Below are positions 4,332-19,744 of a DNA stretch of 62,099 nt, one piece after another. Position numbers and translations under genes: made by a program. How positions within the stretch are numbered: position 1 is the first letter of the stretch; each line of letters begins with the position of its first letter. A model generated the notes under the pieces. It was not told the DNA's origin. It was given only the letters and a program-made list of their open reading frames with translations, and did no database searches. Source of the stretch: an uncultured Alphaproteobacteria bacterium (GTDB lineage Bacteria > Pseudomonadota > Alphaproteobacteria > Methylaequorales > Methylaequoraceae); assembly GCA_902625895.1 (NCBI GenBank), contig CACODD010000003.1, positions 1-62,099 of the forward strand, given 5' to 3'.

Positions 4332-4383
4332 GATGTTATATGTTTATTTTGAAGGTAAGAGAGTGATATTATAAAATAATATT

Positions 4384-5973: not shown

Positions 5974-5977
5974 AAAG

Positions 5978-7249
5978 ATGACAGAGAAATGGGTAAAATG
6001 GAATTTATTTAAAAACGATGAAAAACCAAAAAACGTTATTAGTAAAAGACTTAAAGTATCATTAATTCTTTTCTCACTTATTTTTTTGCTACTAGTGAAT
6101 TTAAAAATTATTGAGGTATTAAGCTTAGCTGACGGAAAAATAATACCCCAAGGAAGAATGAAGTATGTACAACATTTGGAAGGTGGAATAGTTGAAGAAA
6201 TATTAATTAGTGAAGGTGAAAAGGTTGAGATAAATCAACCTTTGGTTATTTTATCGAAAGAAAAAGCAAGCTCTGAATTTGAGGAGATTAACTCAAGACT
6301 TAAATCAATTGATCTGTCGATACTAAGAGTTAATTCTGAAATAAATTCTAATAATTCAATAGAAATTCCTGAAAATAAAAATGACTTATTTGATGAGGAA
6401 TTAGTAAAATCTGAAAATGAACTTTTTCAAAGTAGAAGAAAAGCAATCAACTCTGAAATAAAGTCAAAGAAAGCAAGTATTGATAAAGCTAATAAAAATC
6501 TCAAAAATTTAAAAAAAAGATTAACAATCGTAAAAGAACAAGAAGATATCAGTCAAAAATTATTAGAAGTCGAGGCAACAAATAGGTTAAAGCATTTAGA
6601 AATTTTAAGAGAAAGGCAAGAGGTTGAAGGAAGTATCGACGAACAACAATCTATAATTGATTTGAGCAAGAATGACTTAGAAAAAGTGCAAAACAATTAT
6701 ATAGAAGAATTAAATATCGAGTTGTCACAGTACAAAAAAGAAAAAGAGGAACTTAATAAAAGAATTCAGAAATATTCAGACAGCTTAAATAGAACCGTTT
6801 TAAAAAGCCCTGTATCTGGAACAGTAAAACTTGTGTCAGTAAATTCTAAGGGAGCTATAGTCGCTCCTGGCGTGACTGTTGTTGAAATTGTACCTGAAAA
6901 TGAAAAACTAATAATTGAGGCAAAATTACCTTTATCAGAAATTGGATACGTAAAAAAAAATCTTGAAGCAAAAATTAGACTGAATACACCTGAAGGCTCT
7001 AGGTTTAGATCAATAAAAGGGAAAGTTGTATTTGTAGGCGCTGACAGAATTTCTGGTAAAGATGAAGAGGGTTTTTATTTAGTCAAGGTGGAAACCTCTG
7101 AAAACTCTTTTGCACGAAAAAACGAGGAATATAAACTTTTGTCTGGTGTTCCAGTTATGGTTGGTATTATAACTGGTAAAAGAAGTTTTATGGATTATTT
7201 CTTAACGCCTTTTATAACCGGTGCAAGCTTTGCATTATCTGAAAGGTAA
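5978..7249 (+). CDS. HlyD-family type I secretion membrane fusion (periplasmic adaptor) protein
   Basis: N-terminal TM segment, GKIIPQGR..VQHLEGGIV lipoyl-like start, long coiled-coil region, and C-terminal SGTV..PG..V.IVP and GKRS..DYFL motifs typical of T1SS adaptors. Confidence 0.85.
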   Translation: MTEKWVKWNLFKNDEKPKNVISKRLKVSLILFSLIFLLLVNLKIIEVLSLADGKIIPQGRMKYVQHLEGGIVEEILISEGEKVEINQPLVILSKEKASSEFEEINSRLKSIDLSILRVNSEINSNNSIEIPENKNDLFDEELVKSENELFQSRRKAINSEIKSKKASIDKANKNLKNLKKRLTIVKEQEDISQKLLEVEATNRLKHLEILRERQEVEGSIDEQQSIIDLSKNDLEKVQNNYIEELNIELSQYKKEKEELNKRIQKYSDSLNRTVLKSPVSGTVKLVSVNSKGAIVAPGVTVVEIVPENEKLIIEAKLPLSEIGYVKKNLEAKIRLNTPEGSRFRSIKGKVVFVGADRISGKDEEGFYLVKVETSENSFARKNEEYKLLSGVPVMVGIITGKRSFMDYFLTPFITGASFALSER

Positions 7250-7925: not shown

Positions 7926-9623
7926 TTATTTTTTTTGTTTAAATTGTATATATAGTCCCATTAGGAGTACAGCAAGAATTGGACAAATACTTGCCATTGA
8001 TAGAATACCAAAACCTTCAGTGGCGGATACAGCATTTCCTAGACCCAGACCCATAGCCAGAACAAGTGGTACGGTTACCGGGCCGGTTGTGACTCCAGCG
8101 CTGTCCCAGGCGACATTAACAAATTCTTCAGTTGAAAAGTAAGTTAAAATAATTGCAAGAAGATAAAGTGGTATTAAAACGGTTGCTAAGTCAAAAGCAA
8201 ATACAATTTTTCCAACACCTAAGGCTATCCCAAATGCAACACCCCCGGCAACGCTATACATTAACATTGACTTTTTGAAAGCACCATTGGTAAGCTCTTG
8301 AACTGTCAAACCAAGGGCATTAAGTGCTGGCTCAGCAAGTGTTGCTCCAAATCCTAAGAGCCAAGCAAAAAGAATTACTATAGTTAAACCCAATAATTCG
8401 TTATAAATTGGTGATACTTCACTTATTGGGACTTCCATAAAGGCAGCAGGAAGATTGGTTCCAGCTTGTCCACCTATAGCTCCTAAACCATATGTGAGTC
8501 CTATATTGAAGACACACATCCCAACAATGGACAAAGTTAACCCATAAGTTGTTATCATGTTGTTAGGAAGTTTAGATCTAAGGATTATAAAAAGCACAAT
8601 CATTAAAAATATCACAAGTGGAAGTATCGCTCGAACTCCTCCAATAATTTCAACAAACGGGGTTTGTGACCATTTAGAAACCTCTCCTATGGTCATATCT
8701 GAAACCATACTAGTCGAAGCAATTATTTCCTCAACTGAGATTGTCTGAGAAACATGTATAGCGAGAATCAGAACAGCTATAATTGGAAATAATGAAGCCA
8801 TTGTAACGACGCCGAAACCAGAAAGAGATGAATCTCCTTTACCAGCTGATGCTGCAATTCCAATACCTAGTGATAGCACAAGAGGTACAGTAACTGGTCC
8901 AGTTGTAACAGCACCACAATCCCAAGCTAATCCGAGAATAGTTCTTAAATCAGGATTACTCCATACATATGCAGTAAGAATTATTGTTGGTGTAAGAGCT
9001 GCATAAATCATAGGTTTTAGAGACCAACCTTTGACAAACCTAATCGTTCCAATTATGGCTGCTAGTCCAACACCAGCACCGACCATTACAACTAAGGTTT
9101 CACTTCTATTATTTAGTATCTCATACAGATACGGTGCGTCCTGAGGGTTTATTGATGAACCAAATGCTTTGAGTGCTCCAATAGCTGGTTCCGCATAAGT
9201 TACCCCCACCCCAAGTATTCCAATAATAATTAAAACAAGAACCATTGGTGCTTTTTTTGGTAATGTATCACCAATTACATTGCCAAATGGCATTAAACCG
9301 GTTTTAAGACCTTCCATAAAAATTGCTAGGCCTATTATTACTGCAATTAATCCTAGACAAATTGTTGTCGCTGAAGAGATTGGTTGTCTTAAAATTAAAA
9401 GTTGAAACAGAAATAAATATGCTGCAAGTGGAACAACAGCTTTAATTTGTTCCATAACTCTAGAAATCGTGTAAGGTGCTAATAAAGTAAGTGCCTTGGC
9501 AGGTGATACTTTTATTTTCTGAGGCTTTAGTGATTTTCCTTTAGCTGCCTTCGGCGTAAGAAGGTTATAACTTAAAGATTTATGATTTATCTCTGATTCG
9601 TGAATGTAATCGGAATATTTCAT
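7926..9623 (-). CDS. Polytopic membrane protein with internal duplication (two DUF1538-like halves)
   Basis: The motif AWDCGAVTTGPVTVPLVLSLGIG recurs as AWDSAGVTTGPVTVPLVLAMGLG about 270 aa later. The protein has many TM segments. Confidence 0.7.
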   Translation of the reverse strand: MKYSDYIHESEINHKSLSYNLLTPKAAKGKSLKPQKIKVSPAKALTLLAPYTISRVMEQIKAVVPLAAYLFLFQLLILRQPISSATTICLGLIAVIIGLAIFMEGLKTGLMPFGNVIGDTLPKKAPMVLVLIIIGILGVGVTYAEPAIGALKAFGSSINPQDAPYLYEILNNRSETLVVMVGAGVGLAAIIGTIRFVKGWSLKPMIYAALTPTIILTAYVWSNPDLRTILGLAWDCGAVTTGPVTVPLVLSLGIGIAASAGKGDSSLSGFGVVTMASLFPIIAVLILAIHVSQTISVEEIIASTSMVSDMTIGEVSKWSQTPFVEIIGGVRAILPLVIFLMIVLFIILRSKLPNNMITTYGLTLSIVGMCVFNIGLTYGLGAIGGQAGTNLPAAFMEVPISEVSPIYNELLGLTIVILFAWLLGFGATLAEPALNALGLTVQELTNGAFKKSMLMYSVAGGVAFGIALGVGKIVFAFDLATVLIPLYLLAIILTYFSTEEFVNVAWDSAGVTTGPVTVPLVLAMGLGLGNAVSATEGFGILSMASICPILAVLLMGLYIQFKQKK

Positions 9624-9660
9624 AGTTTACCATAACATATTGTAGAAATTAATAAAATCT

Positions 9661-10128
9661 TTATTCAACATGACTTGTTGACCTCTCTAATCTGTAAAGA
9701 ATTTGTTTTGTTATTTTTTTTATTATTTGATTCTCTGACTCTATTATCTGATCTATTTCATCATGTGAATAAAGTACATTTTGAAACTCATTTCTTTTAG
9801 CAAGTTCTTTACATAAATTTAAAATTACCTTTTGGGCGGCCTTTGAACCAGAATTAATTAGCTCATCAAGATTTTCTTTACTAATAGATATTAACTCTGT
9901 AGATTGAGCTGATGTAATAGTTGCACTTCTGTTTTGTTTTAATATCAAAGCCATTTCACCAAAAACCTCTCCATCTCTCATAGATCCAACTTTTTTTCCG
10001 TCAACTAGTACATCAAGGACTCCAGAAACTATCATGTATGCTTTATCACCTTTGTCTCCTTGATTAAAAAGCGTCTCACCTTCTAACATCAAAATTTTTG
10101 TTGTTTTTCCATGACTAACTTCTTTCAA
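9661..10128 (-). CDS. Stand-alone cyclic-nucleotide-binding domain protein
   Basis: The phosphate-binding cassette FGEMALILKQNRSATITS is present. A short helical tail (QILYRLE) follows and there is no HTH. Confidence 0.8.
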   Translation of the reverse strand: MKEVSHGKTTKILMLEGETLFNQGDKGDKAYMIVSGVLDVLVDGKKVGSMRDGEVFGEMALILKQNRSATITSAQSTELISISKENLDELINSGSKAAQKVILNLCKELAKRNEFQNVLYSHDEIDQIIESENQIIKKITKQILYRLERSTSHVE

Positions 10129-10565
10129 GAAAATATCCTTTGAGATAATCTATAGTGAATCTGTAAAGCTAAAGCTCTTATTACGTTAGGAGAGTCCTTA
10201 GTTAGCTTTACAAGATCGGCTTTGGTAACTGGAAGTTTTTGGTTATCGGATTTTCCTAATTCCTTTGACATTTCATTAATTACTTTATGAAGATCTATGT
10301 TGGAGGATAATAAAATAGCTTCCAACGCCTTTCTTTTTATTTCAACGATTTCACTTGGTACAATAGCTTTTATACTCGCAGTTCTATTTTCATTAAGAAT
10401 TAAAGACAATTCTCCAAAGATTTCACCTGTTTCAATTTTCCCTATTTTTTTTCCTTCAATTTCTGCAACTAATCCACCTGAGACAACTAAAAAGGCTGTT
10501 TCTCCTTTATCTCCCTCTCGAACAATATATTGATCTGGAAGAACTCTTATCTTTTTTAAACTCAT
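10125..10565 (-). CDS. Stand-alone cyclic-nucleotide-binding domain protein (paralog of the next gene)
   Basis: FGELSLILNENRTASIKA cassette and a QIHYRLS tail. It overlaps the downstream paralog by 4 nt (ATGA). Confidence 0.8.
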   Translation of the reverse strand: MSLKKIRVLPDQYIVREGDKGETAFLVVSGGLVAEIEGKKIGKIETGEIFGELSLILNENRTASIKAIVPSEIVEIKRKALEAILLSSNIDLHKVINEMSKELGKSDNQKLPVTKADLVKLTKDSPNVIRALALQIHYRLSQRIFS

Positions 10566-10578
10566 TTAAACCTTTTTT

Positions 10579-12954
10579 TTATTTAGAAGTTGCAACAAAA
10601 ACACCATCCCAATCTTTTGGGGGAGGATGCTTTTTATATTCATTAATTCTTTCTGTCATCATTTCATAGTAATCTTTCATTAAACTTTTACAAAGTGTTT
10701 TTGCCTGAGTCATTTCCTCGATAGCATCTTTCCAATTTTGATTAAAATAGAGATTTAAAACATTTTTATGCTTTTTTTCAAGATTTTTGAAATCAACACT
10801 ATTTTTAAAACTTGGATCACCAAGCAAACAAAAAATTGATACAGCTTCTTTTTTTCCTTTTACTGCTAACATATCAAGTTGGAGCGTAGCATAAGTATCT
10901 TTAACAGCATCGTTTGTTTCTTGCCCAATAACTGTTTTAACTCCATAACCTTTTGATTGACCTTCAAGACGTGATGCTAGATTGACTGCGTCTCCCAATA
11001 CTGAATAGTCAAATCTTTGATCTGACCCCATATTTCCAACAACACAACCTCCAGTATTTAGTCCAATTCCAATTTTCAATTCCAAAAAATCTTTATTTTC
11101 TGACTTTGCTTCCTGTTCTCTTATATCGTTAAGTTCCTTAAGTGCTTTGTGCATGCTCAATGCTGCTTCACAAGAAACTTGCTCGTGTTTATCGACATCT
11201 ATAGGTGCATTCCAAAAAGCCATAATACAATCACCCATATATTTATCTATTGTTCCATTTTTATTTATGATTTCATTTGTAAGAGGAGTTAAAAATCTAT
11301 TTATAAGTTTTGTAAGGCCTTGAGGATCGGATTTAAAAGCTTCTGAAATTGTTGTAAAACCTCTTACATCACAAAAAAGAAATGTCATTTTTTTTGTTTC
11401 TCCACCCAACACTAATTTATCAGGATCTTCAGCTAATTGCTCTACTAAAGCAGGGGATAGATATTGAGAAAATGCACCCCTTATTTGTTTTTTCTCATTG
11501 GCATCTCGTAAGTAGTTTGCAAAGGTGTTACTAAAATAAATTACAAAAGTTGTTACACCTGCAAAGGTTGGATCAAATAAAGTTTTATGTTCAGTAAATA
11601 ACCTTACACTAATATAAAATGCAGAACTTATTATGGTTACAAGTAATGAAATATTTACAATTGGACCAAACCTTAATGCAGACACTGTAATAAATAATGC
11701 AAGCAAAATTGTAAAGAGTGCTTCATAAAATTTCATATTTGCACCAGATTTCAAAAAAGGTGATCCTGAAATTTTAACTTTGTTTTTTTCAATTATTGCT
11801 TCTTCTTCACTTAAACCTTTTTTTAATGCTTCTTTATAAACTTTTTCAGAATTTTTTGTAGATGTATAATAAAGAATTGCTGAAATGACTGTATCAATAA
11901 GATTTGCATGAATTTCAACACCTGGCATTCTTTCATCGACTGGAGTGGGTCTAATATCCTTTAATCCAGTGGCCGATGTGCCTAATATACCAAGTTTTCC
12001 TTGTAATCTATCTTTGCCAACCCTTCCTTTAATTATATCCACTGCACTTACATAATATCTTGATTTACCTTCTTTAACTTTTCCAGCATCTGAATCACCA
12101 TAATAAATCCACACTCTACCATTCTCATCAGTCGGAATAGCAGCATTACCAATAGCTTTAGTTTGAATTATTATTTCTTTAATTCCCGTCAAACCTGTCC
12201 TAGTGGCAATACTATTTCCTTGAAACGCAACCCTTATCATATCAAGTCCAAGAGTTGGTCTGATTTCACCTGCAACATTTGATATTAAGGGTACTCTTCT
12301 AATAATTCCATCTGGTTCCTGTGCAACTGAAACTGTACCAGATCCAGAGGCAGCTTTTTCAAACTCTGTCACATTAGCAAGTAATCCAGGATAAGATATC
12401 AACCATTCCTTTGGATTTTTACCTTTGCCAACAAAAACTTTTACAGATGAATCGTTTATATCATTTCTGTTTGCATCACCTTCTACATCCAAGCCAGAGT
12501 GCCCGATTACTACAGGAAAGTCACTCATAGCTTCAGTGGCTAAAAACTCATTAGAAGGAAGTTCACTTAATAATTTTGCAATAGTTGGATTTCGTTTTTC
12601 TAAATCTTGAGAAATTAAGTCAGGTGAAGTTCTGTCTTTTTCTGCAAAGAGAACATCTAGACCTAAAACAAGCATACCTGACTCTTTAGATTTTTTAAAA
12701 AGATCAGCAAGTACAGTTCTTGGCCATGGCCATTGACCGATTTCTCTTAGAGATTTTTCGTCAATATCTACAATTACGGAGTAAGTTTGACCGTCTGTAG
12801 ATCTTGGAAATTTTTTTTGAAGAACATCAAAATATTTAAGTCGTAGAACTTCTACTATTTCAGGATCAGCTATTCGAATCAAACCAAAAAGAATTGCCAT
12901 TACTAAAGAGGCAATAGTAACAATAAGTCTAAAACTTAGCTTTAATTTAATCAT
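10579..12954 (-). CDS. CHASE2-domain class III adenylate/guanylate cyclase (Lys/Asp pair suggests adenylate cyclase)
   Basis: N-terminal TM, a large periplasmic-type domain, then 3 TM segments. The catalytic domain reads FLFCDVRGFT..DKYMGDCIMAFWNAP..FDYSVLGDAVNLASRLE. Confidence 0.9.
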   Translation of the reverse strand: MIKLKLSFRLIVTIASLVMAILFGLIRIADPEIVEVLRLKYFDVLQKKFPRSTDGQTYSVIVDIDEKSLREIGQWPWPRTVLADLFKKSKESGMLVLGLDVLFAEKDRTSPDLISQDLEKRNPTIAKLLSELPSNEFLATEAMSDFPVVIGHSGLDVEGDANRNDINDSSVKVFVGKGKNPKEWLISYPGLLANVTEFEKAASGSGTVSVAQEPDGIIRRVPLISNVAGEIRPTLGLDMIRVAFQGNSIATRTGLTGIKEIIIQTKAIGNAAIPTDENGRVWIYYGDSDAGKVKEGKSRYYVSAVDIIKGRVGKDRLQGKLGILGTSATGLKDIRPTPVDERMPGVEIHANLIDTVISAILYYTSTKNSEKVYKEALKKGLSEEEAIIEKNKVKISGSPFLKSGANMKFYEALFTILLALFITVSALRFGPIVNISLLVTIISSAFYISVRLFTEHKTLFDPTFAGVTTFVIYFSNTFANYLRDANEKKQIRGAFSQYLSPALVEQLAEDPDKLVLGGETKKMTFLFCDVRGFTTISEAFKSDPQGLTKLINRFLTPLTNEIINKNGTIDKYMGDCIMAFWNAPIDVDKHEQVSCEAALSMHKALKELNDIREQEAKSENKDFLELKIGIGLNTGGCVVGNMGSDQRFDYSVLGDAVNLASRLEGQSKGYGVKTVIGQETNDAVKDTYATLQLDMLAVKGKKEAVSIFCLLGDPSFKNSVDFKNLEKKHKNVLNLYFNQNWKDAIEEMTQAKTLCKSLMKDYYEMMTERINEYKKHPPPKDWDGVFVATSK

Positions 12955-14675
12955 GGTTCTGCAAAACTATTACCAAGAGTTCTTATGAGTGGATAAATAA
13001 AATACGTAATTAATCTTCTTTGCCCAACTCTAAACTTTCCTGAAACTTTCATTCCTGGCATTAAATTAAATCCTGGAGGAATATCTTTTAACTCATTTTC
13101 TGTTATTTGAGCCCTAGCTCTATAAAAATTTCCAGGTTTTCCATCGACATCTTTATCAATTGTGTCAGCAGAAACATAAATAAGCTTTCCTTTTAATTCA
13201 CCATGTTTTTGTGCTGGAAGAGCATTAAGTTGAATTTTAACAGATGTATCCGGAATTAGTTTACTAATATCAGAAGGGTCAACATCAAAAACAGTTAATA
13301 ACTCCACACCTGTTGGTACCAATGTTACAACACTTTTACCTGGTGTTATTACTGCTCCAGGGTATAGAGAATGAAGGTCTAGAATCATTCCGTCAGAAGG
13401 CGCTCTGACCACGACATCAGTTTGTTGTCTTTCAAGTTTTTTAACATCCTCTTGTAGCGACATTCTTTGATCTTCTAACCCAACAAGCTCATCGTTTATT
13501 CCTCCAAAAAATTGGCTGTTATATTCTTTTCTATTAGATTTTAATTCGCTTAGTTTATTGCTAGTTTTTGTAAATTCTTTTTCTAAAGATAACCTTTTAT
13601 TTTTTTCAGCTAAAACTTGTGACTCTGCTACAAGATCAAGTTCAAACAACTCCAACTTTGAATCTTCCAGCTGTTTTTGTATATCAAGTTGTTCCTTGAT
13701 AAACTTTAAATCGTCTTCAGTGGAACCTATTTGTTGATCTAATGAAGCAATCTTTGCTAAATATTGGTCTTTTTTATCTTTAAAGATTCGACTTTGTCTT
13801 TCGTCATTTGGATTTGCAACCGAAACATTATTTCTTAACAATGACTGCTTTCTTAGTCTATCAATTTTTGAATTTACAACTGAAAGCTGATAATCAAGTT
13901 TCATTTTATCGGCTCTTTGTAGTGTAGCATCGAAAGTTACGAGTGGGTCTCCTTGATTTACACTCTCGCCTTTTTTTACAAGTATTTCTTTGACAACAGA
14001 ATTATAGTTTGATTGTACCTCTACATTTGGGACAACGGTGGTAATCTTTCCAGAAGCAGAAATTGTAGTGTCAATTTCCGAAATAGTGCCCCAAGTAATT
14101 AAAAATAAAATAAGGAAACCAAATGAATAGACTGACATTTTTACTGAACTTGGTACCTGCTTTGTTTTAATTCTATCAATGTCGTCATCAAATTCATCTA
14201 ATAATTCACTCATCATTTTTTTTTTTGATCTATTTTCTTTTTCTTCCTCAGTTAAAACTTCTTCTTGATCTTTGTTATTCTCATTTTCATTTCCAGATTC
14301 AAAAGCATCCACAGATAATTTTTCGTTTGCATTTCTGGCATAGCTTGCAAGTTGCTGCATCATATTGAAAGCTGTTTGTGGAGAGTTTTTGAGATATCCT
14401 AGTAAAGCATTTTGATCAATTTCTTTTACCGTTGTCTCAACTGTCGCTCTTGCCATTGCACTTCTTGGTTGTTTGTCAATTAATGCCATTTCTCCAAACA
14501 ACGCACCTTTTTCAAGTATTGACAGAGTTACGTATTCGTCACCGTTGAATTTGCATACCTCTATTTTCCCTTTTACTATTTGATAGGCATAGTCACCAAC
14601 TTCACCTTCTCTAAAAAGCACATCACCAGCAGCTAAATTTCTAACAGCGGGTTGAATATTTTTTTTTTCAGCCAT
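12951..14675 (-). CDS. HlyD-family T1SS adaptor with N-terminal cyclic-nucleotide-binding domain
   Basis: Residues 1-125 form a cNMP domain (FGEMALIDKQPRSAMARA). An acidic linker and a TM follow. The rest has HlyD features (GKITTVVPN, coiled coil, GMILDL..PGAVITPG, RRLITYFIYP). Confidence 0.85.
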   Translation of the reverse strand: MAEKKNIQPAVRNLAAGDVLFREGEVGDYAYQIVKGKIEVCKFNGDEYVTLSILEKGALFGEMALIDKQPRSAMARATVETTVKEIDQNALLGYLKNSPQTAFNMMQQLASYARNANEKLSVDAFESGNENENNKDQEEVLTEEEKENRSKKKMMSELLDEFDDDIDRIKTKQVPSSVKMSVYSFGFLILFLITWGTISEIDTTISASGKITTVVPNVEVQSNYNSVVKEILVKKGESVNQGDPLVTFDATLQRADKMKLDYQLSVVNSKIDRLRKQSLLRNNVSVANPNDERQSRIFKDKKDQYLAKIASLDQQIGSTEDDLKFIKEQLDIQKQLEDSKLELFELDLVAESQVLAEKNKRLSLEKEFTKTSNKLSELKSNRKEYNSQFFGGINDELVGLEDQRMSLQEDVKKLERQQTDVVVRAPSDGMILDLHSLYPGAVITPGKSVVTLVPTGVELLTVFDVDPSDISKLIPDTSVKIQLNALPAQKHGELKGKLIYVSADTIDKDVDGKPGNFYRARAQITENELKDIPPGFNLMPGMKVSGKFRVGQRRLITYFIYPLIRTLGNSFAEP

Positions 14676-14680
14676 TTAAA

Positions 14681-16852
14681 TTACCCGGCCTTTTTTAAAG
14701 ATTTAATTTTGTTTTCAACACCTAAAATAGACATTTGCTTATTATACGTCTTACCAAAATAGCCTGAGGTCTGTCTAAGTTCTTCAAAAGAACCTTGTTG
14801 AGATATTTTTCCTTTTTCAAGTACAAAGATTTTATTACAAAGTCGAAGGTGCCAAACTCTGTTTGACACGATAATAATCGTTCTACCAAGAGCAATATCT
14901 GATAATGCATCATATAATTTTATTTCACTATCAACGTCAAAACCTGTGAAAGCATCATCTAGTATCATGATACGAGGGTTTCTAATAAGTGCTCTAGCGA
15001 TTGCTAGTTTCTGTCTTAAACCAGTTGCTAGGTTTGTAGCGTTTTCTTCAAGAAATGTTTCATATCCATCGGGATAAGACTCTATTTCTTCATGCGCAAA
15101 AACTTTTTTGGCAGCCCACGTTATCCTGTCCATAGAAGAATTTGGCATTGCACTTGCTATTGTTTCTCTTATTGTTCCAGGAAAAAAATAACTATCTGTT
15201 CCGACCAATGAAACCTGTGATCTTACATGACTAAGGTCCAGTAAACGAAGATCTATATTATCAAGGGCTACGATGCCAGCTTGCGGTCTATACAAACCTT
15301 GAATCAGTTTTGCAATGGTACTTTTCCCACAGCCACTTTTACCAGTGATACCAATTATTTGTCTTGGATTAATTTCAATATCAACATCATTTAATACTTT
15401 TGTATTATCGTCGTAGCCGAACTCAACATTTTTAAAAGTAACCTGTCCCATTAGTTGAGGTTTTTGGCCCTTAACAGTTGTTTCGGAGTTTGCATCCACT
15501 ATTCCTGATATGATCTGAAGAGACTGAACTAATTTTGTTATTTCTGTTTTAAGAGTAACTAGATCAATTATTGGTTTTGAAACTCTGCCGGCTAGCATAT
15601 TAAAACCTACTAAAATTCCAGCTGAAAGAGAACCAGAAAATACAAGATGCACCCCAACAAAAATGACCATCGCTGTCATTAGTTGATTTATGGTTGATGA
15701 AATGTTGTTTAAAACTGCTGACTTTTTTTGCATTTCTTCATTTGCAATAATATAATTAGCTTCCAAATCTCTCCACTGATCTTTTAAATTAGGCTCAAGA
15801 GCAAGTCCCTTTACATTCTCAATTCCGTTAACAGCAACAGAAATAAATTCTTGTCTTTTTGATTCAGCCTTACTTAAACCAGCGAGTGAGTCTCTTTGTT
15901 TTTTCGAGTAAAACATTGATGCTAAAGCTCCTAAAATACTGAATGAAAACACAACAATAAATAGTAATGGACTATAAAAAAATAAAATTGGAACAAAAAC
16001 AAGTAAACTAATTGAGTCTAGTGCTGTTGAGAAAACTTTTTGAGTCAGAAGGCTTTTGATCTGAGATATTTGACCTGTGAATCTCAAAAAAGTTGCTGAT
16101 TCTTTGTGAAACCTTTGCATTGGTAAAGCAATTAATTTTTCAAAAACTTTAACTGAAAGTTTGGCTTCAACTTTTTGTGAGAAAAAATCAAGAAGATATG
16201 ATTTTAAATACCCAAGTATTCCATTAAATACATACGCAACAACTACACCTGAAGTTATAACATATAAAGTTGAATAAGCTTCATAGTTTACAACCTTATC
16301 CAAAACTAACATCATGAAAACAGCCGGTATAACTGCGAAAATGTTTAAAATCAAAGCTACGATTACAACTTGAACCATAACAGATTTGTTCCTAAATGAC
16401 TCGCCAATTAACCATCCAATTTTTAATTCGCTGTCTTCTTCGAATTTTTTCAGTTTAGCTTTAAGAAGTATTACTTCTCCGTTCCAGCCTTTTTTTAATT
16501 CTTTTAAATTAATTTGTTGAGGTTTAGGACTGGTAACACCAGTATCAAGGCATAAAACTGACTTATCATCATCTTTTTCACCTTGAATAACTCTTAAAGC
16601 TATTATGTATCTTCCATTTTTAAGTCTTAAGATTTGTTGTTTTTTAGATAAGAGCTTTACTAGTTCTTTATCGCTAATTTTGGTTGCTTTTGCTTTTAAA
16701 TCAAAGGATTGAGCTAGTTCACACATTTCAGTGGTTCTAAGCTCTCTATCTTCAATTTGAAATCTTTCTGGAATATCATTTGGACCAATATGAACCCCTA
16801 GTTGTCTTGCAACTAGAATAATTGATTTTTGAGAACCTCGCATCGCTTCCAT
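14681..16852 (-). CDS. HlyB-like T1SS ABC exporter with N-terminal C39-like domain (no catalytic Cys) and non-canonical NBD motifs
   Basis: The N-terminus aligns by eye with the HlyB CLD (GPNDIPERF, LKAKATKISDKEL, GRYIIALRV). Walker A is GKSGCGKST. The signature reads LATGL, Walker B reads ILDDA and the H-loop reads SNR. Confidence 0.9.
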   Translation of the reverse strand: MEAMRGSQKSIILVARQLGVHIGPNDIPERFQIEDRELRTTEMCELAQSFDLKAKATKISDKELVKLLSKKQQILRLKNGRYIIALRVIQGEKDDDKSVLCLDTGVTSPKPQQINLKELKKGWNGEVILLKAKLKKFEEDSELKIGWLIGESFRNKSVMVQVVIVALILNIFAVIPAVFMMLVLDKVVNYEAYSTLYVITSGVVVAYVFNGILGYLKSYLLDFFSQKVEAKLSVKVFEKLIALPMQRFHKESATFLRFTGQISQIKSLLTQKVFSTALDSISLLVFVPILFFYSPLLFIVVFSFSILGALASMFYSKKQRDSLAGLSKAESKRQEFISVAVNGIENVKGLALEPNLKDQWRDLEANYIIANEEMQKKSAVLNNISSTINQLMTAMVIFVGVHLVFSGSLSAGILVGFNMLAGRVSKPIIDLVTLKTEITKLVQSLQIISGIVDANSETTVKGQKPQLMGQVTFKNVEFGYDDNTKVLNDVDIEINPRQIIGITGKSGCGKSTIAKLIQGLYRPQAGIVALDNIDLRLLDLSHVRSQVSLVGTDSYFFPGTIRETIASAMPNSSMDRITWAAKKVFAHEEIESYPDGYETFLEENATNLATGLRQKLAIARALIRNPRIMILDDAFTGFDVDSEIKLYDALSDIALGRTIIIVSNRVWHLRLCNKIFVLEKGKISQQGSFEELRQTSGYFGKTYNKQMSILGVENKIKSLKKAG

Positions 16853-16884
16853 GAGGATATAATATATTAATTTTTAATTTAATC

Positions 16885-16917
16885 AAAAAAAAAACCCCCT
16901 TAGAAACTCTAAGAGGG
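16885..16917 (-). terminator. Rho-independent terminator between the P/G/M/D-rich gene and the ABC exporter gene
   Basis: Minus strand: CCCTCTTAG-AGTTT-CTAAGGGGG (9-bp stem with one G-U) followed by T10. Confidence 0.75.
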
Positions 16918-16941
16918 TTTTTTATCTATAGAAGTATAGGT

Positions 16942-18102
16942 TTAAACTACCTCACCACCGTCATTTGGGTCGTCTGGTGGCGGAGGTACATCGGCTGGCA
17001 TATCACCAGGCATTGGCCCAGGATCTCCAGGAGGAGGCCCTTCTGGACCTTGATGTGCTCCTGCATCGTCCATGTGAGTATGCATATCACCCATTCCATC
17101 TGGAGGAGGCATATCACCTGGACCACCAGGTCCGCCATCCATTGGCCCTGGTTGACCCATCGGATCACCTGGAGGCATATCACCTGGTGGCGGTCCACCA
17201 GCTGGCCCACCTTCACCAAATAATGGATCTGGCCCTTCACCACCAGGAGGTGGCGGAGGCATTCCGTCTCCATCCATATCCATGCCTGGAGGTGGTCCGT
17301 CAGGTCCCATTGTCCCTGGTCCCATATCAGGAGGAGGAGTTCCTGGTCCGAATTCTGGTCCACCTGCCATATCACCTGGAGGAGGTCCATCTGGTCCTGG
17401 CCCAAAACCGCCCTCTGGATTAGGTGGTTCTCCCATAGGAGGTCCCATTGGTTCTCCATCTGGTCCAAAAGCTGGCCCATCTGGTTGAGGTCCGCCTGCC
17501 ATATCACCTGGAGGAGGTCCGTCTGGTCCCATTCCGCCTGGTCCCATATCACCTGGAGGAGGTCCGTCTGGTCCCATTCCACCTGGTCCCATCTCACCTG
17601 GAGGAGGTCCATCTGGTCCCATTCCAGCTGGTCCCATATCAGTCATTGGTCCTGGTTCCCATGCACCTGGCATAGCACCAGGATCGAATTCTGGTCCACC
17701 TGGAAAATCACCATAAGGTGGTGCTCCATCCATCATTGGACCAAAATCCTCTGGTGGTGGAGGGAAATCGCCTGCCATGTCCATACAAGGCATATCACCG
17801 GGAAACTCTGCCATATGAAAATCTAACGCACCGCCAACAGCATCAAATGCATCCATTGGAGGTGAATCAGGATTTGCTGCCATATGAGCATCAAAAGCAC
17901 CCTGTGCAACGTCTGCGATATTATCCATCATTTCTTTTGGCATACCAGCATCCGCCATAAAATTCATTGCTGCTCCCATACCTTCTCCGAAGGCTGCACT
18001 AGGGTCAGCAGCGAAGTCAGCCGCTTGAAATGGACCCATAGCTGCATCGCCAGCGGCTTCAGCAAAAGCTTCCATTTCAGGTGGCAAAACAAATTCTGCC
18101 AT
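16942..18102 (-). CDS. Pro/Gly/Met/Asp-rich low-complexity protein (no signal peptide, no RTX repeats); possible T1SS cargo
   Basis: 386-aa ORF with AAGGA 8 nt upstream of the ATG. The N-terminal about 110 aa are non-repetitive. The rest is built from GPDGPPPGDMGPGGM-type repeats. A terminator follows immediately. Confidence 0.75.
   Translation of the reverse strand: MAEFVLPPEMEAFAEAAGDAAMGPFQAADFAADPSAAFGEGMGAAMNFMADAGMPKEMMDNIADVAQGAFDAHMAANPDSPPMDAFDAVGGALDFHMAEFPGDMPCMDMAGDFPPPPEDFGPMMDGAPPYGDFPGGPEFDPGAMPGAWEPGPMTDMGPAGMGPDGPPPGEMGPGGMGPDGPPPGDMGPGGMGPDGPPPGDMAGGPQPDGPAFGPDGEPMGPPMGEPPNPEGGFGPGPDGPPPGDMAGGPEFGPGTPPPDMGPGTMGPDGPPPGMDMDGDGMPPPPPGGEGPDPLFGEGGPAGGPPPGDMPPGDPMGQPGPMDGGPGGPGDMPPPDGMGDMHTHMDDAGAHQGPEGPPPGDPGPMPGDMPADVPPPPDDPNDGGEVV
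17495..17641 (-). repeat. About three tandem 45-bp units encoding GGMGPDGPPPGDMGP
   Basis: Units at 17495-17539, 17540-17584 and 17585-17629 are near-identical. A partial fourth follows, and dispersed copies occur elsewhere in the ORF. Confidence 0.85.
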
Positions 18103-18215
18103 AATAAATTCCTTTATTAAATTGTAAGATTAAATTGTGTTAATACTTTAAAAAGTCGATACAGTCTAGTTTAACAATATTTTATTTTTTTATTTTAAGC
18201 AAGCTTTAATTAATT

Positions 18216-19541
18216 TTACTTTTCAATTGTTTCGAAATTGAGAATTCCGCATAGTTTTAATAATTCGAAGGATGAAATAATAAGTTGATATTGTGCGTTC
18301 ACTAAATTTGATTCAGAATTTGTTAGTTCTTTTTGTGCATCTAAAATTTCTAATGTTGTTCTGGTACCAACACTTGCTTCTTTAGTTACTCCCTCAACTG
18401 CCATTAAATTTGACTCAACCGAAACCTCAAGAGAATCTATACTTGATTTTGAACTTTCTATTTTCTTCCATGCCGAATTAATTTGAAATTGTAAGTCAAG
18501 TTTTTTTGTCTCAATTGATTTAATGACGGTGAGAGCAGAATCTTTGGATTTTTCTAAATTCAAAAAATTATGTCCTTTGTTAAATAATGGAACTGTAACA
18601 TTTGCAGTTACTGAGAATGAATCTGTTCTTTCAACCGTTCTTGAGGAATCAAGTGATTTTCCTACTGAACCAGACAAAGAAAATTCTGGTGCAAAATTTA
18701 AATTATTTTTTCTTACATCCAATTTTGAGTTCATAAGTTGTAATTTTAATTTTCTATAATCTGGGTTCTTTTCTAAGCCTGTTTTTATTGAATCGTCCAA
18801 AGATTTTGGAAGTTTTGGTATTTGACCAAATTTTAACCAATCTTTTGGATTGGCGTCGACAATTTGGGCATTATTGGAATCAAACCATTTAATATCCGGA
18901 TCTCTTCCGACAATTGTTTTAAAATCAGAAATTGAAATTTCTAAGTTATTTTCAGCCTCTATTCTCTTTGAAGTAGCACCTGCTAATCTTGCTTTAGCCT
19001 GAAAAACGTCAGTTTTAGTAACATCTTTAAATTCGAATCGCTTTTCTGCAGCATTTAGTTTTTTTTCAAGAGTTTCTTCGTTCCTTTTTGAAACATCTAA
19101 AAGAAAATAATCCTTTAGAACAGTATAATAGGCTTTACTAGCTTTAAATAAAACATCTTGGACTGTTGCGTAAAAGGTTAACTTTGCGATGTTCACGTTA
19201 TTTTTAGCTTGCTTGAAATTTATAGCCTTTGTGTAACCTAAAGGTTGAGATAAATCTAAGTCGAACGTAGTTGGGTTGATAGCGCTATCATTAATTCGAG
19301 ATGTATCAGGGTTGCTTTTTGAAATTTTCCTTCCTTGTGATGCAGATAAATCAAGAGATGGTAGAAAATCTGTTTTTGAAATTTTTAAATCTTTTTCTGA
19401 AATTTTCAGTTCTGTTTTACTTTTTTCAATGTCGGGATAAAACTTATATGCATCTTTTAAAACATCGGAGAGTTCTTCAGAAATTGAAATAATAGGAAAA
19501 AATATTGATGCTAAGATAGCCAGATTAAGTTTGGATTTCAC
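18216..19541 (-). CDS. tolC: TolC-family outer membrane efflux/secretion protein
   Basis: Signal peptide, two-repeat architecture, typical N-terminal L.D.L..AY..YPDI and LPSLDLSAS motifs, 441 aa. Confidence 0.85.
   Translation of the reverse strand: MKSKLNLAILASIFFPIISISEELSDVLKDAYKFYPDIEKSKTELKISEKDLKISKTDFLPSLDLSASQGRKISKSNPDTSRINDSAINPTTFDLDLSQPLGYTKAINFKQAKNNVNIAKLTFYATVQDVLFKASKAYYTVLKDYFLLDVSKRNEETLEKKLNAAEKRFEFKDVTKTDVFQAKARLAGATSKRIEAENNLEISISDFKTIVGRDPDIKWFDSNNAQIVDANPKDWLKFGQIPKLPKSLDDSIKTGLEKNPDYRKLKLQLMNSKLDVRKNNLNFAPEFSLSGSVGKSLDSSRTVERTDSFSVTANVTVPLFNKGHNFLNLEKSKDSALTVIKSIETKKLDLQFQINSAWKKIESSKSSIDSLEVSVESNLMAVEGVTKEASVGTRTTLEILDAQKELTNSESNLVNAQYQLIISSFELLKLCGILNFETIEK

Positions 19542-19667: not shown

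Positions 19668-19744
<77 letters not shown>

What the first reader, a model, noticed from the sequence alone, without database searches (positions are those of the whole stretch)
16942..18102. 386-aa Pro/Gly/Met/Asp-rich protein with 15-aa repeats and no recognisable secretion signal
Residues 1-110 are Ala/Asp/Phe/Met-rich and non-repetitive. The remaining about 275 aa are almost only P, G, D, M and E, with one Lys and no Arg by my reading. They include three near-identical 45-bp units (GGMGPDGPPPGDMGP, 17495-17641) and many dispersed GPDGPPPGDM copies. An HTHMDD motif lies near the C-terminus. The protein has no signal peptide, TM or GGxGxD repeats.

Its position (own SD, terminator, then ABC and adaptor) mimics a T1SS cargo gene. 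Met-rich and Asp/His-rich segments recall the Met motifs of Cu-handling proteins (CopA, PcoC, Ctr1). An extracellular or periplasmic metal-binding disordered polymer is one hypothesis; an elastic surface polymer related to the G/P proteins of locus 1 is another. I know of no described homologue.
Basis: partly seen in the sequence, partly recalled or inferred. Interest (0 to 1): 0.8.

Follow-up and report, generated by a model that had tools for sequence, protein, structure and literature searches.

The report
Disordered acidic cargo of a cAMP-gated secretion system
This is a real, conserved gene of an abundant ocean methanol-eating bacterium (TMED127/Methylaequorales). It encodes a very acidic, floppy proline/glycine/methionine-rich protein that is most likely the dedicated passenger of a type I secretion system gated by a cyclic nucleotide, and its job outside the cell is unknown.

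Summary
Window 18102..16942 (minus strand) encodes a 386-aa protein with P 25%, G 22.5%, D 12%, M 11%, one Lys, no Arg and net charge about -67.

It is a genuine gene:
- GC3 is 0.25 and codon usage matches the host.
- It is the only open frame in six orthologues.
- dN/dS is 0.04-0.37.

It belongs to an undescribed family with no Pfam, NCBIfam or PDB match. Nearly all members come from TMED127/Methylaequorales.

The protein has four parts:
- a duplicated helical-hairpin four-helix bundle (aa 8-98);
- a conserved Pro-rich linker;
- a length-variable PPPGDM-type repeat region;
- a length-conserved C-terminal module of about 48 aa.

Even distant relatives sit in the order TolC - this gene - terminator - HlyB-type ABC - cNMP-binding HlyD - CHASE2 cyclase.

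Best reading: a non-RTX, disordered cargo of a cyclic-nucleotide-gated T1SS. The Cu "Mets-motif" idea gets no support, because MxxM and MxM are not enriched. A role in binding cations or metals remains untested inference.

Verdict: new variant of a known kind; interest 0.6.

The parts
16942..18102 (-). Whole CDS, 386 aa plus stop (stop codon 16942-16944)
   Evidence: ORF list and translation. GC1/GC2/GC3 = 0.79/0.60/0.25. It is the only frame without stops in six orthologues. dN/dS is 0.07-0.37 for the N-terminal domain and 0.04-0.33 for the C-terminus.
18110..18114 (-). Shine-Dalgarno-like AAGGA, 7 nt upstream of the ATG
   Evidence: Read directly from the sequence.
17803..18102 (-). N-terminal domain (aa 1-100): four-helix bundle made of two homologous helical hairpins, each starting with [LM]P[PK]EM. 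Net charge -17.
   Evidence: AF2 helices 8-27, 34-51, 56-76 and 82-97; mean pLDDT 80.9, pTM 0.71. Internal duplication by hhalign, probability 88%. No PDB fold match (best E = 2.6). Stand-alone paralogues of about 111 aa exist.
17635..17802 (-). Conserved Pro/Met/Asp/Phe-rich linker (aa 101-156), containing DMPC-DM, [FM]PP[PM]P-D[FM]G and PPYGDFPGG. Predicted disordered.
   Evidence: Invariant and near-invariant columns in alignments A1 and A2. pLDDT 39-52.
17236..17634 (-). Length-variable P/G/D/M repeat region (aa 157-289). It includes three tandem 15-aa units (17500-17634) and the conserved MDMDGDGMPPPPPG block (17242-17283), whose DMDGDG (17263-17280) fits DxDxDG.
   Evidence: TRF. Motif coordinates. 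Orthologue lengths 295-400 aa with all indels in frame. GDM and PPPG are enriched over shuffles.
17179..17235 (-). Conserved block GPDPLFGEGGPAGGPPPGD (aa 290-308)
   Evidence: Kept in most TMED127-clade members in alignment A1. Coordinates.
16945..17094 (-). C-terminal module (aa 337-386), the candidate T1SS secretion signal. It comprises a helix-compatible amphipathic motif MGDMHTHMDDAGAH (17053-17094), a Pro-rich spacer, and the end PPPPDDPNDGGEVV (16945-16986).
   Evidence: The distance from the motif Met to the C-terminus is 42-45 aa in nearly all members (extremes 39-57), while total length ranges 200-400 aa. The two highest helical hydrophobic moments in aa 157-386 fall here. For comparison, the HlyA signal is the last 50-60 aa with a helix at 975-987 of 1024 (PMC8870123).
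16889..16923 (-). Intrinsic-terminator-like hairpin plus T-run between the cargo gene and the ABC gene
   Evidence: A hairpin is found at the same place in L005, L003 and the distant L007, with different stem or loop sequences. It is weaker in L004.
18216..19541 (-). TolC-family outer-membrane protein
   Evidence: Pfam OEP, E = 8e-57. TIGR01844 scores 222.5 bits, just under its 225.15 cut-off.
14681..16852 (-). HlyB-type T1SS ABC transporter with an N-terminal C39-like domain that lacks the catalytic Cys region
   Evidence: TIGR01846 491.9 bits. Pfam Peptidase_C39 matches only from profile position 20. Best PDB relative is E. coli HlyB (7SGR/8DCK), E = 2.7e-101, residues 13-694 vs 16-692.
12951..14675 (-). 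HlyD-family adaptor with an N-terminal cyclic-nucleotide-binding domain (aa 12-97) ahead of its single TM segment, so the domain is cytoplasmic
   Evidence: Pfam cNMP_binding E = 1.3e-19. TIGR01843 222.6 bits, above its cut-off of 208.65. The listed top 120 metagenome relatives are 83-99% identical.
10579..12954 (-). CHASE2-sensor class III nucleotidyl (adenylate/guanylate) cyclase, overlapping the HlyD stop
   Evidence: Pfam CHASE2 E = 2.7e-46 and Guanylate_cyc E = 2e-19. A CHASE2 gene occupies the same position in L007.
9661..10565 (-). Two small stand-alone cNMP-binding proteins (10125-10565 and 9661-10128)
   Evidence: Pfam cNMP_binding E = 2.5e-15 and 6.7e-18. Present in L003-L005.

Best explanation
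The gene encodes the dedicated, non-RTX cargo of a HlyB/HlyD/TolC type I secretion system whose adaptor carries a cytoplasmic cyclic-nucleotide-binding domain.

Proposed mechanism:
1. The cargo gene is its own transcription unit: SD, ORF, then a strong terminator. It is therefore probably made in excess over the transporter. (Anatomy shown; stoichiometry inferred.)
2. The length-conserved C-terminal module of about 48 aa acts as the uncleaved secretion signal and engages the ABC transporter. The module consists of an amphipathic Met-faced motif 42-45 residues from the end and an acidic-hydrophobic tail, -DD..[DE]VV. (Inferred by analogy with HlyA.)
3. Export is licensed by cAMP or cGMP. The co-operonic CHASE2 cyclase makes the nucleotide in response to an outside signal, and the HlyD N-terminal domain senses it. 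(Inferred from domain content.)
4. The chain of about 230 Pro/Gly-rich residues cannot fold, so it threads C-terminus first. (Inferred.)
5. Outside the cell it is an extended polyanion of about -67 charge, with almost no Lys or Arg and a low nitrogen cost. It most likely binds multivalent cations at or near the cell surface. (Inferred.)
6. The N-terminal four-helix bundle is the only folded part and leaves last. It is either the functional head or a stopper that keeps the chain tethered in the channel. (Inferred.)

Sub-confidences: real gene >0.95; T1SS cargo about 0.7; extracellular cation or metal binding about 0.3; any specific metal <0.15. The overall confidence of 0.55 refers to the cargo reading together with the export mechanism, not to the extracellular function.
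For: The gene is real:
- GC3 is 0.25 against GC1 0.79, and codon usage equals that of host genes.
- Six of six genomic orthologues are intact, and only this frame is open.
- dN/dS is 0.04-0.37.

Linkage to the secretion system:
- The order TolC - gene - ABC - cNMP-HlyD - cyclase - 2x cNMP is kept in L003-L005.
- It is also kept in the distant relative P0114/L007, and partly in P0112/L008.
- A 44.5% GC lineage carries an N-domain protein beside a C39-like ABC and a cNMP-HlyD (P0116/L009).
- Only 60 relatives were found among 1.84 billion representative proteins.

The transporter is a bona fide T1SS:
- The ABC is the closest match to E. coli HlyB, including its C39-like domain.
- HlyD passes the TIGR01843 cut-off.

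The protein looks like a substrate:
- pI is about 4, there is one Cys, and there is no Sec signal or TM segment.
- About 75% of the chain is predicted disordered.
- The C-terminal module keeps a constant length while total length ranges 200-400 aa. It holds the top hydrophobic moments of aa 157-386 and matches the position of the HlyA signal helix (PMC8870123).
- The terminator between cargo and ABC is conserved.
- N per residue is 1.057, against 1.314 for 13 other window proteins. The two neighbouring RTX secreted proteins score 1.11 and 1.20.
- The cargo diverges far faster than its flanks, as surface or extracellular proteins often do.
Against: - There is no direct evidence of expression or secretion. 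The per-gene transcript table of Glass et al. 2025 is cut, in the held copy, before the orthologue's contig. The gene is not among those the paper names above 10^4 TPM.
- HlyB-type transporters with a C39-like domain are known for RTX substrates, and this protein has no RTX array.
- AF2 does not predict a helix in the proposed signal motif (pLDDT 43-52).
- The signal region is very Pro-rich, unlike HlyA.
- A confidently predicted N-terminal bundle could block a T1SS, as N-terminal eGFP does (PMC4648471).
- Canonical metal motifs are not enriched.
- The DP..AF loops of the bundle look like ordinary helix caps (my reading), not binding loops.
- Many database copies are frameshifted in the repeats. 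Nearly all of these lie on contigs of 30 kb to 1.5 Mb, which I take to be long-read assemblies with indel errors. That reading is inferred, not shown.
Confidence: 0.55

Rival explanations
1. Surface-tethered polymer brush or adhesin with no specific metal role. The chain is exported C-terminus first, but the fast-folding N-terminal bundle cannot pass. The protein then stays lodged in the channel and displays an acidic Pro/Gly chain of about 200 aa. That chain could act as a hydration, anti-grazer or anti-phage layer, or as an elastic layer.
For: - The N-terminal domain is confidently folded, followed by a conserved 56-aa Pro-rich linker and a long disordered chain.
- A folded N-terminal passenger stalls the HlyA T1SS with the C-terminal part on the cell surface (PMC4648471).
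- Repeat number varies between strains and the sequence turns over fast.
- GPGGX-type units also occur in the neighbouring RTX protein.
Against: - There is no LapA-type retention-module match.
- No LapG/LapD-like genes occur in the operon.
- Permanent stalling would block the transporter.
- The strict conservation of Asp-Met pairs (48% of Met are preceded by Asp) goes beyond what a mere spacer needs.
Confidence: 0.2
2. It is not a cargo but a cytoplasmic accessory or regulator of the T1SS. The N-terminal bundle would bind the C39-like domain or the cNMP domain of HlyD. The acidic tail would act as a plug or a decoy for the real (RTX) substrates encoded elsewhere.
For: - The gene has conserved linkage with this transporter type, including in a lineage where the partner protein consists of tandem N-terminal domains (L009).
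- Stand-alone N-domain paralogues without a tail occur in non-secretion contexts, so the domain can work inside the cell.
- Two RTX proteins are encoded in the window.
Against: - Those RTX proteins have their own ABC and HlyD next to them (4384-7249).
- The length-conserved C-terminal module and acidic-hydrophobic end are unexplained by a cytoplasmic role.
- The low-nitrogen, Lys/Arg-free composition fits an exported, lost protein.
Confidence: 0.1
3. It is a precursor of a processed peptide or bacteriocin-like product. The N-terminal helical region would serve as a leader that the C39 domain of the ABC transporter recognises and removes.
For: - The ABC has a C39-family domain.
- cNMP-binding proteins are known companions of bacteriocin-type exporters (NCBIfam TIGR03896, weak hit; cyanobacterial examples in the list).
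Against: - The C39-like domain starts after the catalytic-Cys region and aligns with the inactive domain of HlyB.
- There is no Nif11/NHLP or double-glycine leader match.
- There are no modification enzymes in the operon.
- HlyD and the ABC score best as T1SS types.
Confidence: 0.03
4. It is a spurious or decaying ORF produced by a GC-rich low-complexity insert.
For: - Many database copies are frameshifted in the repeat region.
- Several other frames are also long and open across the repeats.
Against: - Purifying selection acts in this frame at both ends.
- This frame has zero stops in six of six orthologues, against 2-31 stops in each other frame.
- Codon usage is native.
- Synteny is conserved.
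- Frameshifted copies are concentrated on very long contigs, and at least one (P0032) returns to frame.
Confidence: 0.02

Closest known systems
E. coli HlyA / RTX substrates of HlyB-HlyD-TolC (T1SS with a C39-like domain)
   Same: - The cargo gene lies directly upstream of a HlyB-type ABC (E = 2.7e-101 to HlyB, including the C39-like domain) and a HlyD adaptor.
- The protein is acidic and Gly/Asp-rich, with no N-terminal signal.
- The candidate uncleaved signal lies in the last ~50 residues, with a helix-compatible motif at the same distance from the end as HlyA 975-987.
- A terminator sits between cargo and transporter genes. From memory, hlyA-hlyB has one too.
   Different: - There is no GGxGxDxUx beta-roll array.
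- There is no toxin or enzyme domain.
- About 75% of the chain is Pro-rich and disordered.
- The folded domain is N-terminal and helical.
- The adaptor carries a cNMP-binding domain and the operon a CHASE2 cyclase. No paper in the searched library linked these to a T1SS.
Ehrlichia chaffeensis tandem-repeat proteins TRP47/TRP120/TRP32 (PMC3417381)
   Same: They are tandem-repeat proteins of an alphaproteobacterium reported as T1SS substrates related to the RTX family (abstract). From memory, they are also acidic and largely disordered.
   Different: - From memory, they are Ser/Glu/Asp-rich rather than Pro/Gly/Met-rich.
- They are effectors of an intracellular pathogen.
- From memory, they are not encoded beside their transporter.
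- No sequence relationship was found: no search returned an Ehrlichia protein, though no direct comparison was run.
HasA hemophore (Serratia/Pseudomonas; from memory)
   Same: It is a non-RTX protein exported by a T1SS through a C-terminal signal. Its job is to capture a scarce metal cofactor outside the cell. It is the precedent for a T1SS-exported protein metallophore.
   Different: - HasA is a compact folded heme-binding protein that docks on a TonB-dependent receptor.
- It shares no sequence or fold similarity with this protein.
- No receptor partner was identified here.
LapA/MpIBP-type retained T1SS adhesins (from memory)
   Same: - They have a folded N-terminal module, a long repetitive exported region and a C-terminal signal.
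- Their surface display is controlled by a second messenger (c-di-GMP there, cNMP here).
   Different: - There is no retention-module match (NF033682 hits the neighbouring 897-aa RTX protein weakly, not this one).
- There are no LapG/LapD genes in the operon, no Ig-like repeats and no RTX.
SilE/PcoE and Met-rich regions of CopA/PcoC/CueO/Ctr1 (from memory)
   Same: They are Met- and His-containing, partly disordered, acidic segments. The single MHTHM motif here resembles HxxM/MxxH units.
   Different: - Mets motifs are not enriched over composition here.
- The His residues of the motif are not conserved across the family.
- There is no Sec signal, no copper-resistance gene context and no family match.

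Membership tests
T1SS substrate with C-terminal signal (HlyA/RTX group) | Encoded next to the ABC transporter, membrane-fusion protein and outer-membrane factor | tested here: met
   Window operon. The same order is found in L003-L005, in L007, and partly in L008.
T1SS substrate with C-terminal signal (HlyA/RTX group) | Partner ABC is of HlyB type with a catalytically inactive C39-like domain | tested here: met
   Best PDB match is HlyB over residues 13-694. The Pfam C39 match starts at profile position 20, and residues 1-12 contain no Cys.
T1SS substrate with C-terminal signal (HlyA/RTX group) | Uncleaved secretion signal in the last 50-60 residues | tested here: inconclusive
   The C-terminal module has a conserved length, an amphipathic-compatible motif and an acidic-hydrophobic end. 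No helix is predicted and there is no functional test.
T1SS substrate with C-terminal signal (HlyA/RTX group) | Tandem GGxGxDxUx nonapeptide (RTX) repeats | tested here: not met
   No HemolysinCabind hit. There are only three isolated GGxGxD hexamers at a 15-aa spacing. It is therefore not filed as an RTX protein.
T1SS substrate with C-terminal signal (HlyA/RTX group) | Acidic pI, few Cys, no Sec/Tat signal, no TM segment | tested here: met
   pI about 4.05, one Cys, maximum KD19 0.63, acidic N-terminus.
T1SS substrate with C-terminal signal (HlyA/RTX group) | Demonstrated transporter-dependent secretion | not testable with these tools
   This needs culture or heterologous expression.
Met-motif copper-handling proteins (CopA/PcoC/Ctr1/SilE/PcoE) | Clusters of MxxM/MxM or HxxM/MxxH motifs beyond composition | tested here: not met
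   MxxM 4, MxM 2 and MxxxM 5, against about 4.7 expected. There is one HxxM and one MxxH.
Met-motif copper-handling proteins (CopA/PcoC/Ctr1/SilE/PcoE) | Sequence-family match, or copper-resistance gene neighbourhood | tested here: not met
   Zero Pfam or NCBIfam families for the target. Of the window genes scanned, the neighbours are T1SS, cNMP, DUF1538, Sel1, HD and deacetylase genes.
Lanmodulin / EF-hand lanthanide- or Ca-binding proteins | Several 12-residue EF loops (DxDxDG....E; Pro at position 2 in lanmodulin) | tested here: not met
   There is one DxDxDG (aa 275-280) followed by MPPPPP, so position 12 is not Glu. There is no EF-hand family hit.
LapA-type retained T1SS adhesins | N-terminal retention module (NF033682) and LapG/LapD partners | tested here: not met
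   No NCBIfam hit for the target, and no such genes in the operon. The rest of the genome was not examined.
Collagen-like / elastomeric repeat proteins | Long (Gly-X-Y)n runs, or long GPGGX arrays | tested here: not met
   The longest G-X-Y run is 3 triplets. There are only two exact GPGGM units, at aa 172-176 and 187-191.
Double-glycine-leader peptides exported by peptidase-containing ABC transporters | Active C39 peptidase (catalytic Cys) and a GG-type or Nif11/NHLP leader | tested here: not met
   The C39-like domain lacks the Cys region. No leader-family hit was found, even at E <= 1.

The most novel reading that the evidence does not exclude
The protein is a T1SS-exported protein metallophore: a released or surface-tethered polyanionic chain. 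With it, the ocean's most transcriptionally active lanthanide-dependent methanol oxidiser would concentrate scarce multivalent metals at its surface, either lanthanides through carboxylates or copper through Asp-Met/His sites. Export would be switched on by a CHASE2/cAMP signal. This would fill the gap noted by Glass et al. 2025, who found no lanthanophore, lanmodulin or lanpepsy in TMED127. It would also be a first example of a cyclic-nucleotide-gated T1SS with a non-RTX disordered cargo.
Probability: 0.1. Interest if true: 0.9.

Novelty: new variant of a known kind. Interest (0 to 1): 0.6.

Why it matters
- **The organism.** TMED127/Methylaequorales are reported as the most transcriptionally active methanol oxidisers of oligotrophic surface oceans, with genomes of about 1.5 Mb (PMC12542740). 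In such a streamlined genome, about 9.9 kb is spent on this cargo, its transporter and a private cyclic-nucleotide circuit. The arrangement is conserved across the clade.
- **For T1SS biology.** This is a natural HlyB-type system whose apparent substrate has no RTX repeats and is almost entirely disordered. It also carries a short signal module of fixed length and an adaptor that reads a second messenger. That makes it a clean system for asking what a T1SS signal really is and how export can be gated.
- **For marine biogeochemistry.** It is a concrete, testable candidate for an extracellular cation- or metal-handling protein in an organism whose lanthanide scavenging route is unknown.
- **A practical point.** With one Lys and no Arg, the protein is essentially invisible to tryptic proteomics. 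Its absence from existing (meta)proteomes says nothing.

Tried and rejected
- **Family and fold searches.** Pfam and NCBIfam scans of the target gave zero families. Pfam on 17 N-domain sequences at E <= 1 gave only scattered, inconsistent weak hits. A PDB sequence search with the N-domain profile found nothing at E <= 10. Foldseek against PDB gave best E = 3.4 for the full model and 2.6 for the domain model, generic helical bundles only.
- **Homology with the locus-1 GP-rich RTX protein.** Rejected (BLASTP E = 1).
- **RTX reading of the GGMGPD hexamers.** Rejected.
- **Collagen-like reading.** Rejected.
- **Cu Mets-motif reading.** Not supported.
- **EF-hand or lanmodulin reading.** Rejected. 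There is a single incomplete DxDxDG. The DP..AF loops of the bundle look like ordinary Asp-Pro helix caps (my reading).
- **Eukaryote-like proline motifs.** DFPPPPED at aa 112-119 resembles an EVH1 ligand, and GMPPPPPG resembles a formin FH1 tract. Rejected as a conserved feature, because orthologues have [FM]PP[PM]P[PGED]D[FM] at the first site.
- **PopZ-like polar organiser.** No family match.
- **Expression look-up.** Table S5 of Glass et al. is truncated, in both held copies, before the relevant contig.
- **Widening the search.** The homologue search with the cNMP-HlyD listed only close (>=83%) TMED127 relatives, so it did not show what cargo more distant cNMP-HlyD systems carry.
- **Contig L013.** This 1,003-bp contig spans 81 nt upstream of the ATG to the foot of the terminator. 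I could not tell whether it is a transcript assembly.
Full report
**1. Observation**

The feature is a minus-strand ORF, 18102 to 16942, of 386 codons. Its composition is extreme: P 25.1%, G 22.5%, D 12.4%, M 11.1% and A 10.1%. It has 67 acidic residues against one Lys and no Arg. Thirteen other proteins of the window average P 3.5%, G 6.7%, M 2.3% and K 8.3%.

Tandem Repeats Finder reports a 45-bp unit with 3.2 copies and 94% matches at 17499-17641. GPDGPPPG occurs five times and PPPG eight times. GDM and PPPG are six standard deviations above composition-matched shuffles. MHTHMDDAGAH lies at aa 340-350. No 19-residue window is hydrophobic enough for a membrane segment, the N-terminus is acidic, and the pI is about 4.

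- Three GGxGxD hexamers are present (aa 174, 189, 287), although they are not RTX repeats.
- The N-terminal 100 residues are an internal duplication, not a unique sequence.

**2. It is a real gene**

- The local GC of 55% in a 31% GC window comes only from codon positions 1 and 2 (0.79 and 0.60). Position 3 is 0.25, and synonymous codon choice for Pro, Gly, Asp, Ala and Glu equals that of the host genes. The gene is therefore native, and this is the reading frame.
- Six genomic copies (the window, four single-cell genomes and one MAG) are all intact, at 295-386 aa. This frame has zero internal stops, while every other frame has 2-31.
- Pairwise dN/dS is 0.07-0.37 over the first 156 codons and 0.04-0.33 over the last 55.
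- About a third of the 51 database clusters look frameshifted inside the repeats. These lie almost entirely on contigs of 30 kb to 1.5 Mb, and at least one returns to frame. Short-read contigs and the single-cell genomes are intact. I read the frameshifts as long-read indel errors in C/G runs. This is an inference.

**3. Organism**

The window is 92% identical in DNA to single-cell genome AG-892-F10 across this region. Glass et al. 2025 (PMC12542740) name that genome "Methylaequor ceniphilum", of the order TMED127/Methylaequorales. They describe a streamlined (about 1.5 Mb), apparently obligate, lanthanide-dependent (XoxF5) methylotroph of oligotrophic surface oceans.

The paper found no lanthanophore, lanmodulin or lanpepsy genes. 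It suggests that unknown, highly transcribed genes may scavenge lanthanides.

**4. Anatomy of the protein**

Alignment of intact homologues and AlphaFold models give four parts.

(a) *Residues 8-98* form a four-helix bundle (pLDDT about 80-90, pTM 0.71 for the domain alone).
- The bundle is built from two homologous hairpins, each starting with [LM]P[PK]EM (hhalign probability 88%).
- It has no sequence or fold relative in the PDB and no Pfam family.
- The same domain exists as a stand-alone protein of about 111 aa in many marine metagenome clusters, in an unrelated gene context.
- In a 44.5% GC lineage it occurs as tandem copies (P0116).

(b) *Residues 101-156* are a conserved but disordered Pro/Met/Asp/Phe linker.

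(c) *Residues 157-289* are a fast-evolving repeat region.
- Its length varies between strains, and overall protein length ranges from 200 to 400 aa.
- Its recurrent core is PPPG[DE]M.
- Across the family, 48% of Met residues in the tails are preceded by Asp.

(d) *The last ~48 residues* form a module of conserved length.
- The Met of the x-S-H-M-D-D-A-G motif lies 42-45 residues from the C-terminus in nearly all members (range 39-57).
- The chain ends in PPPP-DD-x-[DE]-[VI]-[VGN].
- The 14-mer MGDMHTHMDDAGAH places M337, M340, M344 and A347 on one helical face (my reading of the sequence). The motif and the extreme C-terminus have the highest hydrophobic moments of the whole disordered part.

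**5. Context**

On the minus strand the order is as follows:

| Window position | Element | Evidence |
|---|---|---|
| 19668-19744 (+ strand) | tRNA-Pro(UGG) | |
| 18216-19541 | TolC | |
| 16942-18102 | this gene | |
| 16889-16923 | strong terminator-like hairpin | |
| 16859-16886 | promoter-like box | |
| 14681-16852 | ABC transporter | |
| 12951-14675 | HlyD adaptor | |
| 10579-12954 | CHASE2 class III nucleotidyl cyclase | |
| 9661-10565 | two small cNMP-binding proteins | |
| 7926-9623 | DUF1538 membrane protein | |

- The ABC transporter's best solved relative is E. coli HlyB over its whole length, including the inactive C39-like domain (E = 2.7e-101).
- The HlyD adaptor passes the T1SS model TIGR01843. 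It carries a cyclic-nucleotide-binding domain at its N-terminus, before the single TM segment, so the domain is cytoplasmic.
- This order is kept in L003-L005.
- It is also kept in L007, a relative whose flanking genes are only about 70% identical and whose cargo DNA no longer aligns. L007 keeps the tRNA-Pro and the terminator as well.
- L008 keeps TolC, the gene and the start of a C39-like ABC.
- L009 has the N-domain protein divergent from a C39-like ABC plus a cNMP-HlyD.
- The adaptor is 83-99% identical in the listed top 120 metagenome relatives. The cargo N-terminal domain drops to 55-60% identity and the tail is barely alignable. The cargo therefore evolves much faster than its machine.

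**6. Explanation**

The best-supported reading is that this is the dedicated cargo of that T1SS.

Shown:
- the genetic coupling;
- the HlyB-type machine;
- the substrate-like properties of the protein: acidic, no N-terminal signal, one Cys, mostly unfolded;
- a separately terminated cargo transcription unit;
- a C-terminal module whose length and two end-motifs are conserved while everything between varies.

Inferred by analogy:
- The C-terminal module is the secretion signal. In HlyA the information lies in the last 50-60 residues, with an amphipathic helix 37-49 residues from the end (PMC8870123).
- Export runs C-terminus first (PMC4648471).
- cAMP or cGMP made by the CHASE2 cyclase licenses export through the adaptor's cNMP domain.

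Inferred from composition:
- Outside the cell the chain is an extended polyanion.
- Its lack of Lys, Arg, Asn, Gln and His (1.057 N per residue against 1.314) fits a protein that is lost to the sea by a nutrient-limited cell.
- The costly Met residues, conserved as Asp-Met pairs, argue for a specific role.

I favour binding of multivalent cations at or near the cell surface, but nothing here tests it. Canonical Cu Mets motifs are not enriched. The His residues of the MHTHM motif vary across the family. Only one incomplete DxDxDG exists. The DP..AF loops of the bundle look like helix caps (my reading).

The fate of the N-terminal bundle is open. A folded N-terminal passenger stalls the HlyA system and leaves the C-terminal part on the surface. 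A naturally tethered brush is therefore a serious rival. So is a cytoplasmic accessory or plug role.

**7. Comparison with known systems**

The system works like a HlyA-type T1SS, but the cargo fails the RTX membership test. It cannot be filed with Cu Met-motif proteins, lanmodulin/EF-hand proteins, LapA-type adhesins, collagen-like proteins or double-glycine-leader precursors. Each of these fails at least one defining feature tested here.

The nearest analogues in logic are these:
- the tandem-repeat T1SS substrates of Ehrlichia (PMC3417381);
- the HasA hemophore, a non-RTX T1SS protein that fetches a metal cofactor (from memory);
- LapA, whose display is controlled by a second messenger (from memory).

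I found no paper that describes a T1SS combined with a cNMP-binding adaptor and a CHASE2 cyclase, or this protein family. NCBIfam does recognise a cNMP-binding companion of bacteriocin-type exporters (TIGR03896).

**8. Verdict**

This is a real, conserved, undescribed protein family. It is most likely a non-RTX disordered cargo of a cyclic-nucleotide-gated T1SS in an ecologically important marine methylotroph.

- Novelty: a new variant of a known kind.
- Interest: 0.6.
- Most novel reading not excluded: a secreted or tethered protein metallophore, perhaps for lanthanides. Its probability is about 0.1, and it would deserve about 0.9.
- Practical warning: the protein yields no usable tryptic peptides, so standard proteomics cannot speak to its expression.

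Noticed in passing
window 19668-19744 (+); L007 1-55: tRNA-Pro(UGG) lies immediately upstream of, and divergent from, the TolC gene of an operon that encodes a protein with 25% Pro (56% CCA codons). The tRNA sequence is 100% identical, and in the same place, in a relative whose flanking genes are only about 70% identical.
   Followed up: partly
window 16796-16818 (-); L005 9223-9245; L007 2626-2648: A hairpin with a 9-bp stem lies inside the 5' coding region of the ABC gene (codons ~12-19). Its stem is almost unchanged between the window, L005 and the distant L007, while the loop differs. It could be a translational or RNA-stability element, or it could simply reflect the conserved LVARQLG coding sequence.
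   Followed up: no
window 1-1557 (+): The locus-1 ORF is open from base 1, so it is cut by the window edge. Its Gly/Pro-rich N-terminal part contains (GPGGF)n-type pentapeptides. These are followed by RTX repeats and a C-terminal domain. It has no homology with the target beyond composition.
   Followed up: partly
window 1638-7249 (+): A second, separate T1SS is present. It comprises an 897-aa RTX protein with a FecR domain, a Glu-rich acidic stretch and a weak LapA retention-module hit (24 bits, cut-off 50). This is followed by a 529-aa ABC without a C39-like domain and a 423-aa HlyD. No TolC gene lies beside it, so the TolC at 18216-19541 may serve both systems.
   Followed up: partly
L010 2945-3283, L011, L012; proteins P0099, P0265 and more than 60 clusters: Stand-alone proteins of about 111 aa consist of the N-terminal four-helix domain alone. 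They contain Lys and conserved Cys. They are common in marine metagenomes and sit beside P-II and aminotransferase genes, not secretion genes. Their function is unknown.
   Followed up: partly
L009 3777-8633 (GCA_028344655.1, 44.5% GC): In a higher-GC lineage, a protein made of at least two tandem copies of the N-terminal domain is encoded divergently from a C39-like ABC and a cNMP-binding HlyD. The protein is very acidic, has no Pro/Gly tail as far as the contig goes, and is cut by the contig end. This suggests the helical domain, not the tail, is the constant partner of this transporter type.
   Followed up: partly
window 7926-10565 (-): Two small stand-alone cNMP-binding proteins and a 565-aa DUF1538 membrane protein follow the cyclase on the same strand. 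They may belong to the same cyclic-nucleotide circuit.
   Followed up: no
proteins P0005-P0007, P0014, P0029-P0033, P0038, P0041, P0047 (contigs 79 kb-1.5 Mb): Database copies of the gene on very long contigs are frameshifted inside the repeat region, whereas short-read and single-cell copies are intact. These are probably long-read homopolymer errors. Gene callers will therefore truncate this gene in many long-read MAGs.
   Followed up: partly
window 17746-17769 (aa 112-119, DFPPPPED) and 17242-17265 (aa 280-287, GMPPPPPG): Short proline motifs here match eukaryotic EVH1-ligand and formin FH1-like patterns. The first is not conserved in orthologues ([FM]PP[PM]P...), so it is probably coincidental.
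   Followed up: yes
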